From positions 7,161 to 71,160 of IMG/VR virus record IMGVR_UViG_3300022602_000077: DNA of 64,000 nt. One strand, given 5' to 3'. The notes beneath the pieces were generated by a model, which saw nothing but the letters and a program-made list of their open reading frames with translations, made no database searches and was not told where the DNA came from. Positions 54,922 to 57,454 of the stretch are shown piece after piece (position 1 is the stretch's first letter; every line of letters begins with the position of its first letter). A program made the translations under genes and the position numbers. The DNA comes from a virus (lineage: Duplodnaviria > Caudoviricetes).

Positions 54922-54959
54922 CTTAACCCCAACGCACTCCCCTTTAGGGGCAGGGGGTT
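54922..54959. repeat. 38-bp REP-like hairpin, direct-repeat copy 1
   Basis: CTTAACCCCAACGCACTCCCCTTTAGGGGCAGGGGGTT; near-identical copy at 57416-57454. Confidence 0.8.
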
Positions 54960-55177
54960 TTTACAATATTCATCACTCCGCATTCCGTCCGTTTACATTT
55001 TATGCGCCCGTCCACCTTCACAAACTCTCCCAGCCCATGCCCGCAATGCCCGCACCTGGCAAGCCTGCCTTTAAATTTCGCCAGCACCATTTCAGGTTTT
55101 GGCGCAACAGTATATACAAGGGGCTTCTTATAATCCGGAACCGGAGTGAAAGTAGAATCGTGTCTAATGACAGACAT
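54944..55177 (-). CDS. Com-family zinc-ribbon regulator (Mu Com-like)
   Basis: RCGHCGHGLGEFVKVDGRIKCKRTECGVMNIV matches the Com pattern RCxxC..L......IKC.RC..MN. Confidence 0.7.
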   Translation of the reverse strand: MSVIRHDSTFTPVPDYKKPLVYTVAPKPEMVLAKFKGRLARCGHCGHGLGEFVKVDGRIKCKRTECGVMNIVKTPCP

Positions 55178-56637
55178 AGAGAGATAGAGTTTACCAAAAT
55201 TACTGTTTTTTTTATCACCACTTTCCTCACCTCATTCACCAGTGCGTTCTTATCGGTTTCCAGCATCTTCATTACATCGAAAATCTTATCGCTGAACCCC
55301 GCCATAGCAAAAACCTTCTGCTCCGGAAACTGCATAGTGCCATAGTTCTGCAAATCGAATGAGTAAATGAATGGGTTGGCTTTAAACCTCATCCTGTATG
55401 CCGAAGCTGCATATGTCGGTGTGTGGTGGCCTATCCATCCCTGCATATCGCTCAGTATGATCACCCGGTCATACTTCTTATTCAGTGTATCAAAGATCGA
55501 GTTGAAGTTTGTTCCGCCGCTGCTGAATTTTATCGCCCCGGCTATGGTCAGTGTGCTATCTGCCGGGTTCACGTTAGTGTATTTTGCACTATCCGAAAAT
55601 CTTACAAAATCAGCATTACATGCCTTTATAAGCACTGCGCTGAAAAGGCTTCCTATATTCGCTGGTTTACCCTCCATGCTGCCGCTCACGTCCAGCACCA
55701 CGCATGTATCTCCGTCAAACTGCGGCACGTTACGGCAGGCTATATCCACAGCCTTGCTTATCGCTGTCAGGGTTATCCTGCTGGCCGCGTCAGTGCCGCT
55801 TTTCTTTATTTCTTCATAGGCCGTAGCATACCTGAAAGGCAATACCAGGCTCTTGCTTATCAGCTTTTCGTCCGTGAGCATCGCCAGCGCTTCAGGCACC
55901 ACTTCCGGGGCCTGAGCCAGTATGTTCCGGAGGTTGCGCAGTAGCGCAAAGTATCCGATTTTCTTGCTTCGGATAAGTTCTGCCCACGCCTCTTTTTTGA
56001 ATTCCGCTTTTTCATCATCGTTTTCAGCTTTTTGTCCTGCTTCGCTTAATTTGCTTTCCCAGGTATCAAACGATTTCAGATCGTTTTTCACCAGCGCTTT
56101 CAGCGCCTCAGCGTTCTTTTCGCATGGCATAGGATGCACAAGGTTCACCACATCCACAAGGCTGAATTCCTTGCCCGCTCCCTTATACTTGGCAAGCTGG
56201 TAAGCGTCAAACTTCCCGAATGCCGCCGCAAAGCCCTTCTTCATGGCGTTGGGTATTTTACCGTTATTGGCCTTATGGAAGCTGAGAATTTCCATCATAT
56301 CATCTGGCCGGTACACAATGGCGGCGTAGAACCTGGTGGCCCATTCCTGCCCGCTTATATGCCTGGCAAGGTGTGAGGCCACCACATGACTGATCGACCG
56401 CATACCATATACGGTACGCGCATAGATCGCCGCCTGCGCCACAAACAGTTTGTTGCATACGCCGGTCAGGTGTTTCAGTCTTTCGAAGGTATCATCGGCT
56501 TTCCGGTAATAGGCATCACCGGCAAATGAAGTCAGCAGTATGGACATAAGTTCCAGTTCAGGGCTCTGCCCATAGGCTTCCCCACCTGCAAGGTTGATTG
56601 TTTTGGTAGTCGGTACTTGTTGATTGAAACGAGACAT
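55018..56637 (-). CDS. rsr: Ro60/TROVE domain RNA-binding protein with vWA domain
   Basis: NLAGGEAY....ELEL, ARTVYGMRS, F.KFDAYQLAKY, L.DV.NLVHP, GYFALLRNLRNI, VLPFRY..A, DVSGSM (MIDAS), IILSDMQ. The last about 60 aa look like read-through after an A8 tract. Confidence 0.95.
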   Translation of the reverse strand: MSRFNQQVPTTKTINLAGGEAYGQSPELELMSILLTSFAGDAYYRKADDTFERLKHLTGVCNKLFVAQAAIYARTVYGMRSISHVVASHLARHISGQEWATRFYAAIVYRPDDMMEILSFHKANNGKIPNAMKKGFAAAFGKFDAYQLAKYKGAGKEFSLVDVVNLVHPMPCEKNAEALKALVKNDLKSFDTWESKLSEAGQKAENDDEKAEFKKEAWAELIRSKKIGYFALLRNLRNILAQAPEVVPEALAMLTDEKLISKSLVLPFRYATAYEEIKKSGTDAASRITLTAISKAVDIACRNVPQFDGDTCVVLDVSGSMEGKPANIGSLFSAVLIKACNADFVRFSDSAKYTNVNPADSTLTIAGAIKFSSGGTNFNSIFDTLNKKYDRVIILSDMQGWIGHHTPTYAASAYRMRFKANPFIYSFDLQNYGTMQFPEQKVFAMAGFSDKIFDVMKMLETDKNALVNEVRKVVIKKTVILVNSISLCLSLDTILLSLRFRIIRSPLYILLRQNLKWCWRNLKAGLPGAGIAGMGWESL

Positions 56638-56677
56638 AGGTTGATAATTTAGGGATAAAAATTAGGGATAAAAGAAA

Positions 56678-56746
56678 TGCGGAAGAAAGTAACAAATGGT
56701 GTTAGTATCAATCCATATGAAGTAACCATCTGTATCACTATCCGCA
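56678..56746 (-). ncRNA. Y-RNA-like unit 1 (minimal)
   Basis: Closing stem TGCGGA/TCCGCA; TAGTGAT, GGTTACTTC and ACTTTCT motifs; second stem ACAGATGGT/ACCATTTGT. Confidence 0.75.
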
Positions 56747-56752
56747 AAGAGG

Positions 56753-56848
56753 TTTGTACGAGAAAGTTTCAGTGAGTTTCGCGGATTTGAACCGCTAATC
56801 CCCAAGGGAGATATTAACCGATGTAACTCACAAATCGCTACGTACAAA
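56753..56848 (-). ncRNA. Y-RNA-like unit 2 (hairpin plus T-arm payload)
   Basis: Closing stem TTTGTACG/CGTACAAA; TAGCGAT, GAGTTACATC, ACTTTCT; payload GCGG-TTCAAAT-CCGC. Confidence 0.8.
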
Positions 56849-56855
56849 AGAGGGG

Positions 56856-56938
56856 TTGCAAGAGAAAATTTCAAAGGGTTTTGTCTGGATGCTGAGTTTA
56901 AGTCGGCGTTGAAGTAACCCTGTGATCACTACCTGCAA
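56856..56938 (-). ncRNA. Y-RNA-like unit 3 (short payload)
   Basis: Closing stem TTGCA/TGCAA; GTAGTGAT, GGGTTACTTC, ATTTTCT; second stem CACAGGGTT/AACCCTTTG. Confidence 0.75.
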
Positions 56939-56943
56939 GAAGT

Positions 56944-57068
56944 TTAGCGAGAAAGTTTAAAAGAGAGTGCCTAAACCATTCGGCTTTCTCCCCAGGTAAC
57001 GTTTTTCCTGCGGGGGGGAGAATTGGAGTCGAACCAATAATGAAGTAACCCTTTTATCGCTACGCTAA
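56944..57068 (-). ncRNA. YrlA-like unit 4 (circularly permuted tRNA mimic)
   Basis: Closing stem TTAGCG/CGCTAA; T-arm ATTGG-TTCGACT-CCAAT, closed acceptor-like stem, D-arm GCC-GAATGGTTTA-GGC. Confidence 0.85.
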
Positions 57069-57079
57069 GATTTTTAAAA

Positions 57080-57223
57080 GATAAAAGGGAGAATATTTAA
57101 GCAGGAAATTTAGATGCTCTAACCAACTGAGCTAAAAGCTACGGTTCCGCAGCCTTGCAGGAATCGAACCTGTGACCCTCTCGCCCCAAACGAAGTAACC
57201 CGCTTATCGCTACCCCTTTTATC
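57080..57223 (-). ncRNA. YrlA-like unit 5 (circularly permuted tRNA mimic)
   Basis: Closing stem GATAAAAGGG/CCCTTTTATC; T-arm CAGG-TTCGATT-CCTG, closed acceptor-like hairpin AAGGCTGCGG-AA-CCGTAGCTTT, D-arm GCTC-AGTTGGTTA-GAGC. Confidence 0.88.
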
Positions 57224-57229
57224 CTTTGC

Positions 57230-57326
57230 CTGCCAAAGCCTTTTTCGGGCGACGGCAGGTTTCCAATATGTCAATGAACTTTTTGTATTTTTATCATCCG
57301 CCATAGCTTTTTCAGCGAAGGCGGAT
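57230..57326. repeat. Two REP-like hairpins
   Basis: CCTGCCAAAGCC..GGCGACGGCAGG and TCCGCCATAGCT..AGCGAAGGCGGA. Confidence 0.5.
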
Positions 57327-57384
57327 TGAGAGGACAAACATAATACCCAAAAACAAAAAAGTTTGTTAATTCTAAATTTTTGAA

Positions 57385-57415: not shown

Positions 57416-57454
57416 CTTAACCCCGACGCACTCCCCCTTTAGGGGCCGGGGGTT
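57416..57454. repeat. 39-bp REP-like hairpin, direct-repeat copy 2
   Basis: CTTAACCCCGACGCACTCCCCCTTTAGGGGCCGGGGGTT; abuts the terminase stop codon. Confidence 0.8.

What the first reader, a model, noticed from the sequence alone, without database searches (positions are those of the whole stretch)
56678..57223. Phage Ro60 with a tandem array of five modular Y-RNA-like ncRNAs (common scaffold, variable payload)
Seen on the minus strand directly upstream of the TROVE gene: five units of 69-144 nt separated by 5-11 nt. Each has (1) a closing stem with a different sequence but preserved pairing (TGCGGA/TCCGCA, TTTGTACG/CGTACAAA, TTGCA/TGCAA, TTAGCG/CGCTAA, GATAAAAGGG/CCCTTTTATC); (2) an internal loop with conserved 5' TAG(C/T)GAT and 3' A(C/T)TTTCT-like strands; (3) a second covarying stem; (4) a conserved GTTAC(T/A)TC; (5) a variable domain ranging from about 15 nt to a full tRNA mimic. 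Covariation across five paralogues is strong evidence of RNA structure. Established: bacterial Ro60 (Rsr) binds Y RNAs encoded next to it, YrlA RNAs mimic tRNA, and Rsr-Y RNA can tether PNPase. Inference: this is an array-type system in which one Ro60 is loaded with interchangeable RNA modules from a processed polycistron. In a phage it may supply decoys or repair scaffolds against tRNA-cleaving abortive-infection nucleases, or redirect host RNases. The conserved motifs differ from the GNCGA-type Ro-binding motif I recall for characterised Y RNAs, and no RtcB is present in the window.
Basis: partly seen in the sequence, partly recalled or inferred. Interest (0 to 1): 0.92.

Follow-up and report, generated by a model that had tools for sequence, protein, structure and literature searches.

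The report
Five Y-RNA genes before phage Ro60
A tailed phage of a Bacteroidota-like host carries five small structured RNA genes in a row just before its Ro60 gene. All five share one conserved handle but carry different, partly tRNA-like bodies, and this layout is the norm (usually three units) in over a hundred related Ro60 loci.

Summary
On the minus strand, between terL and a TROVE/Ro60 gene, lie five units: 57223-57080, 57068-56944, 56938-56856, 56848-56753 and 56746-56678. Spacers are 11, 5, 7 and 6 nt.

Each unit reads: closing stem, UAGYGAU, second stem, (G)UUACWUC, variable cargo, second stem, AYUUUCU-like strand, closing stem. A covariance model built only from units of other loci finds exactly these five in the 64 kb (E 1e-13 to 1e-8). 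Among the five, 11 of 13 pairs covary.

The same scaffold occurs 224 times in 116 related TROVE loci, always on the TROVE strand and with one exception upstream. Units per locus run 0-6, most often 3. So the array is a family trait, with this window near the top.

U1 is a YrlA-type permuted tRNA mimic. U2 and U4 carry T-arms. U3 and U5 carry loops.

These are best read as Y RNAs for the phage Ro60. That is a known kind: YrlA/YrlB, and phage phiLo Yrl1/Yrl2. New here are the handle consensus, which Rfam's YrlA model does not reach at threshold, and the array size. UAGYGAU is a near variant of the GNCGAA/CGAA motif, not a different one.

Expression, processing and binding are untested. This scan has noted similar arrays on other DNA.

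The parts
57335..57369 (-). Promoter-like element: TTAACA, 18 nt, TATTAT, overlapping a Bacteroidota-type TAnnTTTG box at 57342-57335
   Evidence: Sigma-70 scan, 10 of 12 matches. The TATGTTTG box was read from the sequence. This is consensus only and function is not shown.
57229..57326 (-). Leader before U1, with two hairpins (57326-57296 and 57259-57229) that both have GAAAAAG-type loops. They are not scaffold units.
   Evidence: Sequence. Neither R1 nor R2 matches here.
57080..57223 (-). U1, 144 nt: handle plus a full permuted tRNA mimic (V-like hairpin, T-arm, closed acceptor-like arm, D-arm). This is the YrlA type.
   Evidence: Rfam YrlA 37.6 bits, E 2e-6, below the gathering score of 69. 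Folds. R1 39.2 bits, R2 59.1 bits.
56944..57068 (-). U2, 125 nt: handle plus a T-arm, a long closed arm and a D-arm-like hairpin (3-bp stem, loop GAAUGGUUUA)
   Evidence: Constrained fold. R1 44.9 bits, R2 53.6 bits.
56856..56938 (-). U3, 83 nt: handle plus a cargo of about 32 nt that is largely unstructured
   Evidence: R1 66.8 bits, R2 51.0 bits.
56753..56848 (-). U4, 96 nt: handle (GUUACAUC variant) plus a hairpin followed by a T-arm
   Evidence: The same two-hairpin class is seen in L076, L057, L077 and L109. R1 35.2 bits, R2 40.5 bits.
56678..56746 (-). U5, 69 nt: handle plus a short loop. It belongs to the short YrlB-like unit type present in most related loci.
   Evidence: R1 64.2 bits, R2 42.2 bits.
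55018..56637 (-). Ro60/TROVE gene, 539 aa. Residues 1-473 match relatives of about 475 aa. The last 66 aa are an extension.
   Evidence: Pfam TROVE. PDB 9KOP/9L5Y, E 1e-25. 6607 homologues, with the best at 66-72% identity over 88% of the query. MIDAS DVSGS.

Best explanation
The five units are genes for Y RNAs, the small noncoding partners of Ro60, made for the phage's own Ro60.

Each RNA has two parts. The first is a constant handle. It consists of a closing stem of 6-11 bp, an internal loop with UAGYGAU facing AYUUUCU, a 7-8 bp second stem closed by an invariant G-C pair, and then single-stranded UUACUUC. The second part is a cargo that differs from unit to unit.

Inferred steps:
1. A promoter-like site about 110 nt upstream drives one transcript. 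It runs through the array into the Ro60 gene, because this window has no terminator between U5 and the ATG.
2. Host endonucleases cut in the 5-11 nt spacers.
3. Ro60 binds the handle. By analogy with GNCGAA/CGAA motifs, it binds at the closing stem and the CGA-containing loop, and protects the monomers.
4. The different cargoes couple the same Ro60 ring to different host partners. The cargoes are two tRNA mimics, one hairpin-plus-T-arm and two loops. Candidate partners are PNPase and tRNA-recognising enzymes. The effect would be to redirect host RNA decay or repair during infection.

Shown here: the anatomy, the covariation and the strict linkage to TROVE genes. Not shown: transcription, cutting, binding and partners.
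For: - Position and strand: 229 scaffold matches in the window plus 116 TROVE loci are all on the TROVE strand, and 228 lie upstream of the gene.
- Independent detection: model R2, trained without window sequence, finds exactly the five units.
- Covariation: 96% of cells are paired. All 13 pairs change on both sides in each of two separate alignments (124 and 69 distinct rows). The score is 0.97 and 0.94, against 0.23 and 0.22 for shuffles and at most 0.19 for slid partners. Within the window 11 of 13 pairs covary.
- U1 aligns end to end with Rfam YrlA at E 2e-6, with canonical T-loop and D-loop sequences in the permuted order typical of YrlA.
- The handle loop carries the (C/U)GA core of the motifs shown to bind Ro60 (PMC4201824; PMC12135203).
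- The protein is a complete Ro60.
- Cargo types are old paralogues. U1's cargo resembles cargoes in L003-L005 far more than it resembles any other window unit.
- The mix of at least one tRNA-like unit with at least one short unit recurs across loci. This matches the pattern described for three bacteria in PMC4201824.
Against: - There are no expression, processing or binding data.
- U1 is below Rfam's YrlA gathering score, and none of 20 related loci reaches it.
- The literal GNCGAAN0-1G motif is absent from the window units.
- Single-unit folding energies are only modestly better than shuffles, and U2 has z -0.8.
- The covariation alignments were fitted to the model's structure, which leans the counts towards it.
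- In 37 of 66 distinct related loci a terminator-like hairpin separates the array from the gene. Co-transcription with Ro60 in this window is therefore the exception and unproven.
Confidence: 0.85

Rival explanations
1. The units act in cis as a structured 5' leader of the Ro60 mRNA. Ro60 binds its own leader and so sets its own translation or transcript stability. The units are not released as free RNAs.
For: In this window only 40 nt and no terminator-like site separate U5 from the ATG. Several relatives have spacers of 1-24 nt.
Against: 37 of 66 distinct loci have a hairpin plus T-run between the last unit and the gene. A complete 64.6-kb phage record (L161) carries two high-scoring units and no TROVE gene at all. 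The varied, conserved cargo types are hard to explain for a mere binding site. The two roles could also coexist.
Confidence: 0.08
2. The region is a decayed tRNA gene cluster, or a set of pseudo-tRNAs with no function of its own.
For: T-arm and D-arm sequences occur in U1, U2 and U4. Some related loci lie after long tRNA arrays, and L001 has a real tRNA-Glu inside its array.
Against: ARAGORN finds no tRNA in the window, and the Rfam tRNA model scores 19.4 bits against a threshold of 29. U3 and U5 have no tRNA parts yet keep the handle. The handle is conserved and covaries in 193 distinct alignment rows.
Confidence: 0.03
3. The handle binds a protein other than Ro60, and the linkage to TROVE genes reflects a shared pathway rather than direct binding. 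The partner could be a host factor, such as PNPase or a tRNA-modifying enzyme, that recognises the nearly invariant UUACUUC.
For: UUACUUC is conserved at about 97-100% and is more constant than the CGA-type loop. It has no counterpart in the Rfam YrlA consensus. Units also exist in a phage without TROVE.
Against: There is near-obligate adjacency to TROVE and a shared strand. The stem-loop-stem with a CGA motif matches what binds phiLo Ro60 (PMC12135203). The TROVE-less phage could simply use a host Ro60.
Confidence: 0.04

Closest known systems
Bacterial and mycobacteriophage YrlA/YrlB Y RNAs with Rsr (Ro60) (Chen et al. 2014, PMC4201824; Rfam RF02553)
   Same: They are encoded next to Ro60 and on the same strand. 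The 5'/3' stem carries a GCGA-type motif. One RNA per locus has a permuted tRNA-like domain, and a shorter partner RNA is also present. In M. smegmatis two Y RNAs lie upstream of rsr and are cut from one precursor.
   Different: Here there are five units rather than two. The handle consensus is distinct (UAGYGAU, AYUUUCU and an invariant UUACUUC). U1 scores 37.6 bits against a gathering score of 69, and no related locus tested reaches that threshold. No rtcBA operon is nearby.
Thermus phage phiLo Ro60 with Yrl1 and Yrl2 (PMC12135203)
   Same: It is a phage-encoded Ro60 with Y-like RNAs directly upstream. The RNAs have a stem-bulge-stem with a CGAA-type motif that binds the protein. It is also the closest solved structure to this protein.
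   Different: It has two RNAs, not five, and no tRNA-like cargo is reported. The protein is only distantly related (E 1e-25), and the host phylum differs.
Deinococcus radiodurans Yrn1/Yrn2 and the Ro60-Y RNA-PNPase machine (cited in PMC4201824)
   Same: It embodies the same modular idea: one module binds Ro60, and the other tethers an effector.
   Different: No sequence similarity was found here. PNPase tethering is only an inference for this phage.
Vertebrate Y RNA paralogue sets (two to four per species; PMC4201824 introduction)
   Same: Several Y RNAs share a Ro-binding stem and differ in their loops.
   Different: They are separate genes rather than a tandem array, and they have no tRNA-like cargo.

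Membership tests
Bacterial/phage Y RNA (YrlA/YrlB class) | Encoded within about 4 kb of a Ro60/TROVE gene, on the same strand | tested here: met
   The units lie 40-585 nt upstream of the TROVE ATG on the same strand. The same holds for 223 of 224 matches in 116 related loci.
Bacterial/phage Y RNA (YrlA/YrlB class) | The 5' and 3' ends pair into a stem next to an internal loop or bulge | tested here: met
   The closing stem is 100% paired in the five units and 96-98% paired in relatives, with all 6 pairs covarying.
Bacterial/phage Y RNA (YrlA/YrlB class) | GNCGAAN0-1G / CGAA Ro-binding motif near the 5' end | tested here: inconclusive
   The window has AGCGAU (U1, U2, U4) and AGUGAU (U3, U5). 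The literal motif is absent and only the (C/U)GA core is kept. Relatives have UAGCGAA and UGGCGAU.
Bacterial/phage Y RNA (YrlA/YrlB class) | At least one RNA of the locus has a tRNA-like domain (T-arm and D-arm) | tested here: met
   U1 has a GGUUCGAUUCC T-loop arm and an AGCUCAGUUGGUUAGAGC D-arm in the YrlA order.
Bacterial/phage Y RNA (YrlA/YrlB class) | Reaches Rfam RF02553 gathering score | tested here: not met
   37.6 bits against 69. There is no hit at gathering threshold in the window or in 20 related loci.
Bacterial/phage Y RNA (YrlA/YrlB class) | Bound by Ro60 and dependent on it for accumulation | not testable with these tools
   This needs RIP, EMSA or Northern blots.
Ro60 / TROVE protein | TROVE (HEAT-ring) domain | tested here: met
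   PF05731, E 2e-17. The phiLo Ro60 match covers residues 13-467.
Ro60 / TROVE protein | C-terminal vWA domain with a MIDAS motif | tested here: met
   DVSGS at residues 316-320. There is also a weak VWA_CoxE hit over residues 310-414.
tRNA genes | Cloverleaf detected by tRNA finders | tested here: not met
   ARAGORN finds 0 genes. Rfam tRNA scores 19.4 bits against 29, and that match spans U1 and U2.

The most novel reading that the evidence does not exclude
The constant handle is a standard plug that loads any cargo onto Ro60. Phages and bacteria of several phyla would then keep libraries of 3-7 cargoes that aim one Ro60 ring at different host RNA enzymes, or serve as decoys for tRNA-targeting defences. 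The cargoes are permuted tRNAs, tRNAs in normal order, T-arm minihelices and bare loops. The invariant UUACUUC would be a second, undescribed contact site. Some phages would carry only the RNAs and take over the host's Ro60, as in the complete TROVE-less record behind L161.
Probability: 0.3. Interest if true: 0.8.

Novelty: new variant of a known kind. Interest (0 to 1): 0.6.

Why it matters
Ro60 and Y RNAs are conserved from bacteria to humans, yet what the variable Y RNA modules do is still largely open.

This locus and its roughly 100 relatives offer a natural series of one handle with many cargoes. There are 193 distinct alignment rows, clear cargo classes and a compact covariance model. 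That makes the adaptor idea directly testable in a phage-host pair.

The results also show that Rfam's YrlA model does not reach this clade at threshold. Y RNAs in Bacteroidota, Verrucomicrobiota, Chloroflexota and their phages therefore probably go unannotated.

Tried and rejected
- **Pairing of UAGYGAU with GUUACU.** AGUGAU can pair with GUUACU on paper. However, GUUACUUC stays invariant while the first motif varies (AGCGAU, GGCGAU, AGCGAA), which gives mismatches and no covariation. I rejected this pairing.
- **MAFFT alignment of long and short units together.** It misaligned the 3' ends, so I built the model from short units only and let Infernal's local ends absorb the cargo.
- **Exact-pattern scan of viral contigs** for TAGCGAT, 6-7 nt, GTTACTTC. 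Most of the 80 loci fetched were chance or coding matches without a closing stem. Only 9 had a TROVE match. The bare pattern is not specific; the full scaffold is.
- **Canonical Bacteroidota promoter.** A TTTG, 17-23 nt, TAnnTTTG pattern was not found upstream of U1. Only the -7 box and a sigma-70-like pair are there.
- **Conserved neighbour genes.** None was seen in five related loci.
- **RtcB in host-like genomes.** It is present in five genomes that hold relatives, but adjacency to TROVE could not be established.
- **Small ORF before the arrays of relatives.** It gave only a weak ribbon-helix-helix hint, E 0.13.

Full report
**What is there**

Read on the minus strand, the stretch between the terL stop (57453) and the TROVE start (56637) holds five units:
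- U1 57223-57080, 144 nt
- U2 57068-56944, 125 nt
- U3 56938-56856, 83 nt
- U4 56848-56753, 96 nt
- U5 56746-56678, 69 nt

Spacers between units are 11, 5, 7 and 6 nt, and 40 nt separate U5 from the ATG.

Every unit has the same order of parts:
1. a closing stem;
2. UAGCGAU or UAGUGAU;
3. a second stem;
4. GUUACUUC (GUUACAUC in U4);
5. a cargo of about 19-86 nt;
6. the return strand of the second stem;
7. a pyrimidine strand, A(C/U)UUUCU (AUAUUCU in U1);
8. the return strand of the closing stem.

**Is it more than chance**

- All five GTTACWTC sites in the 64-kb window, on either strand, are the five units.
- I built scaffold-only covariance model R1 from eight short units. Two came from the window and six from relatives.
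- R1 finds exactly five matches in the window at E<=10. These include U1, U2 and U4, which it had never seen.
- I built a second model, R2, from 86 units of loci L061-L116 only. It again finds exactly these five, at E 1e-13 to 1e-8, and nothing else.
- Among the five units 63 of 65 pair cells are standard pairs and 11 of 13 pairs change on both sides. No shuffle out of 500 reaches this, and slid partners give about 50-60% pairing.
- Folding-energy z-scores of single units are modest: -2.8, -0.8, -1.6, -2.4 and -3.4. The case therefore rests on comparison, not thermodynamics.

**The neighbours**

The gene after the array is a complete Ro60:
- Pfam TROVE, E 2e-17.
- Its best solved relative is the Ro60 of Thermus phage phiLo, E 1e-25 over residues 13-467.
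- A MIDAS motif DVSGS sits at residue 316.

The window is a tailed phage. It has terL, a Mu-type portal, a ClpP-type protease, a tape measure, PolA, a VapE primase-helicase and an SNF2 helicase. No RNA ligase, kinase or RtcB appeared in any ORF of 300 aa or more, nor in the smaller ORFs I scanned.

The -7 box type and the labels on close protein relatives point to a Bacteroidota host. Those labels are Bacteroidia, Chitinophagales, Flavobacterium, Lutibacter and Cyclobacteriaceae.

**Relatives**

The protein has thousands of homologues, with the best at 66-72% identity. I fetched 116 loci that encode relatives: 9 viral, 27 from genomes and 80 from metagenomes.

- R1 gives 224 matches in these loci. 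All are on the TROVE strand, and all but one lie upstream of the gene.
- Among loci with at least 800 nt of upstream sequence, units per locus are distributed as follows: 0 units in 7 loci, 1 in 26, 2 in 15, 3 in 37, 4 in 9 and 6 in 1.
- These counts are lower bounds. Some divergent units were visibly missed, and some loci are the same contig fetched from two collections.
- Three units is the norm among the closest relatives. The window's five is near the top.
- Covariation is strong in the two large alignments. 96% of cells are paired and all 13 pairs change on both sides. The score is 0.97 and 0.94, against about 0.22 for shuffles and at most 0.19 for slid partners.
- These alignments were fitted to the model's structure, which favours it. 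The size of the effect and the many pair types per column make an artefact unlikely.

**The handle**

Column counts over 124 distinct units give this consensus:
- closing stem, with its last pair G-C in 87%;
- U81 A76 G95 (C62/U37) G87 A100 N;
- a seven-pair second stem, closed by G-C in 98%;
- U U A C U U C at 91-100%;
- cargo;
- return strand;
- N A N U U U U C U;
- closing stem.

The first loop strand shares its GCGA core with GNCGAAN0-1G of YrlA (PMC4201824). It shares the CGA core with the CGAA bulge motif whose mutation weakens binding to phiLo Ro60 (PMC12135203). Relatives carry UAGCGAA and UGGCGAU.

The UUACUUC strand has no counterpart in the Rfam YrlA consensus, and it is the most constant element. 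It may be a second contact, either for Ro60 or for a common partner. This is open.

**The cargoes**

- U1 folds into a V-like hairpin, a T-arm, a closed acceptor-like arm and a D-arm in the permuted order of YrlA. It aligns end to end with Rfam YrlA at 37.6 bits, E 2e-6, below the gathering score of 69.
- U2 has a T-arm, a long closed arm and a D-arm-like hairpin.
- U4 has a hairpin followed by a T-arm. This two-hairpin class recurs in other loci, in either order.
- U3 and U5 have loops without stable structure. U5 belongs to the short type found in most loci.

Across loci, arrays typically combine at least one tRNA-like unit with at least one short unit. Chen et al. described that pattern for three bacteria.

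U1's cargo is far closer to cargoes in L003-L005 than to any other window unit. The units are therefore old, differentiated paralogues and not recent duplicates.

**Transcription**

A promoter-like site lies about 110 nt before U1. It reads TTAACA, 18 nt, TATTAT, and overlaps TATGTTTG. A nested hairpin follows the terL stop.

No terminator-like site lies between U5 and the ATG. In contrast, 37 of 66 distinct related loci have a hairpin plus T-run there. In this phage the array is thus probably co-transcribed with Ro60 and would need processing.

All of this is inference. No expression data could be obtained.

**Best reading and rivals**

The units are Y RNAs for the phage Ro60, with a constant Ro-binding handle and varied effector cargo (confidence 0.85). 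Three rivals fit the data less well, for the reasons given under each in the Rival explanations section:
- a purely cis-acting autoregulatory leader;
- a decayed tRNA cluster;
- a handle that binds some other protein.

**Compared with what is known**

Already described:
- Y RNAs beside bacterial and phage Ro60.
- The tRNA-like YrlA domain.
- Two Y RNAs cut from one precursor.
- The modular adaptor idea (PMC4201824).
- A phage Ro60 with two upstream Y-like RNAs that bind it and host PNPase (PMC12135203).

Not found in the papers I could search:
- This handle consensus.
- Its spread over several phyla and their phages.
- Arrays of five or six units.
- The cargo classes.

Rfam's model does not reach this clade at threshold. 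The library is limited, and the key supplement and review were not available. I file the finding as a new variant of a known kind.

**Earlier notes of this scan**

The scan has noted arrays with the same handle (AGUGA, UACUUC, UUUUCU) upstream of phage Ro60 genes in other genomes. They have three to about seven units, and one lies in a Bacteroidota RNA-repair island. It has also noted arrays with a different handle beside Ro60-like DUF2828 proteins. I did not test those notes. They agree with the survey done here.

Noticed in passing
window 55018-55219 (minus strand): The Ro60 ORF runs 66 aa past the point where relatives of about 475 aa end. The extension is hydrophobic and of low complexity. 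The ORF overlaps the start of the next ORF (54944-55177) by 160 nt; that ORF has a weak Com zinc-ribbon hit, E 0.024. This looks like a lost stop codon or a frame error rather than a real domain.
   Followed up: partly
window 57229-57326 (minus strand): Two hairpins lie in the leader before U1 (57326-57296 and 57259-57229), both with GAAAAAG-type loops. They are not scaffold units. Relatives have a small ORF at this position instead.
   Followed up: no
window 56649-56673 (minus strand): A direct repeat TTTTATCCCTAA occurs twice, one base apart, between U5 and the Ro60 start codon. No Shine-Dalgarno sequence is visible.
   Followed up: no
L002:3438-3578 and the same place in L003-L005, L009, L001: A conserved ORF of about 46 aa follows a TAnnTTTG box and precedes the arrays of close relatives. 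In several loci its stop codon is the UAG of the first unit's UAGCGAU. There is only a weak ribbon-helix-helix hint (E 0.13). The ORF is absent from the window.
   Followed up: partly
L161:5406-5608 (minus strand): A complete phage record (64.6 kb, direct terminal repeats, 100% complete by CheckV) has two high-scoring units (75.4 and 48.9 bits). It has no TROVE gene anywhere in the record. These may be Y RNAs that rely on a host Ro60.
   Followed up: partly
L001:3519-3594: A genuine tRNA-Glu (UUC) sits between units 1 and 2 of a four-unit array (ARAGORN; Rfam 54.6 bits).
   Followed up: partly
L091:266-407 and L026:721-858: These units carry D, anticodon and T arms in normal tRNA order. ARAGORN calls them tRNA-His (AUG) and tRNA-Trp (CCA). 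The conserved UUCCUUCG / UUACUUCG of the handle then lies where the 5' acceptor strand of a tRNA would be.
   Followed up: partly
L020, L025, L026, L032, L081, L093, L098: In the metagenome-assembled-genome loci labelled Verrucomicrobiota (L020, L025, L026, L032) and in unlabelled metagenome loci (L081, L093, L098), the Ro60 gene and its Y units lie at the end of long same-strand tRNA gene arrays, up to about 20 tRNAs within 3 kb.
   Followed up: no
L045:2556-2656: A unit-like element with closing stem, UAGCGAC and a second stem has UUCAUCUGC in place of UUACUUC. Model R1 missed it, so unit counts are lower bounds.
   Followed up: no
window 57419-57454 (minus strand): A nested GC-rich hairpin overlaps the terL stop codon and runs on past it. 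On the plus strand it gave a chance sub-threshold match to a CRISPR repeat model.
   Followed up: no
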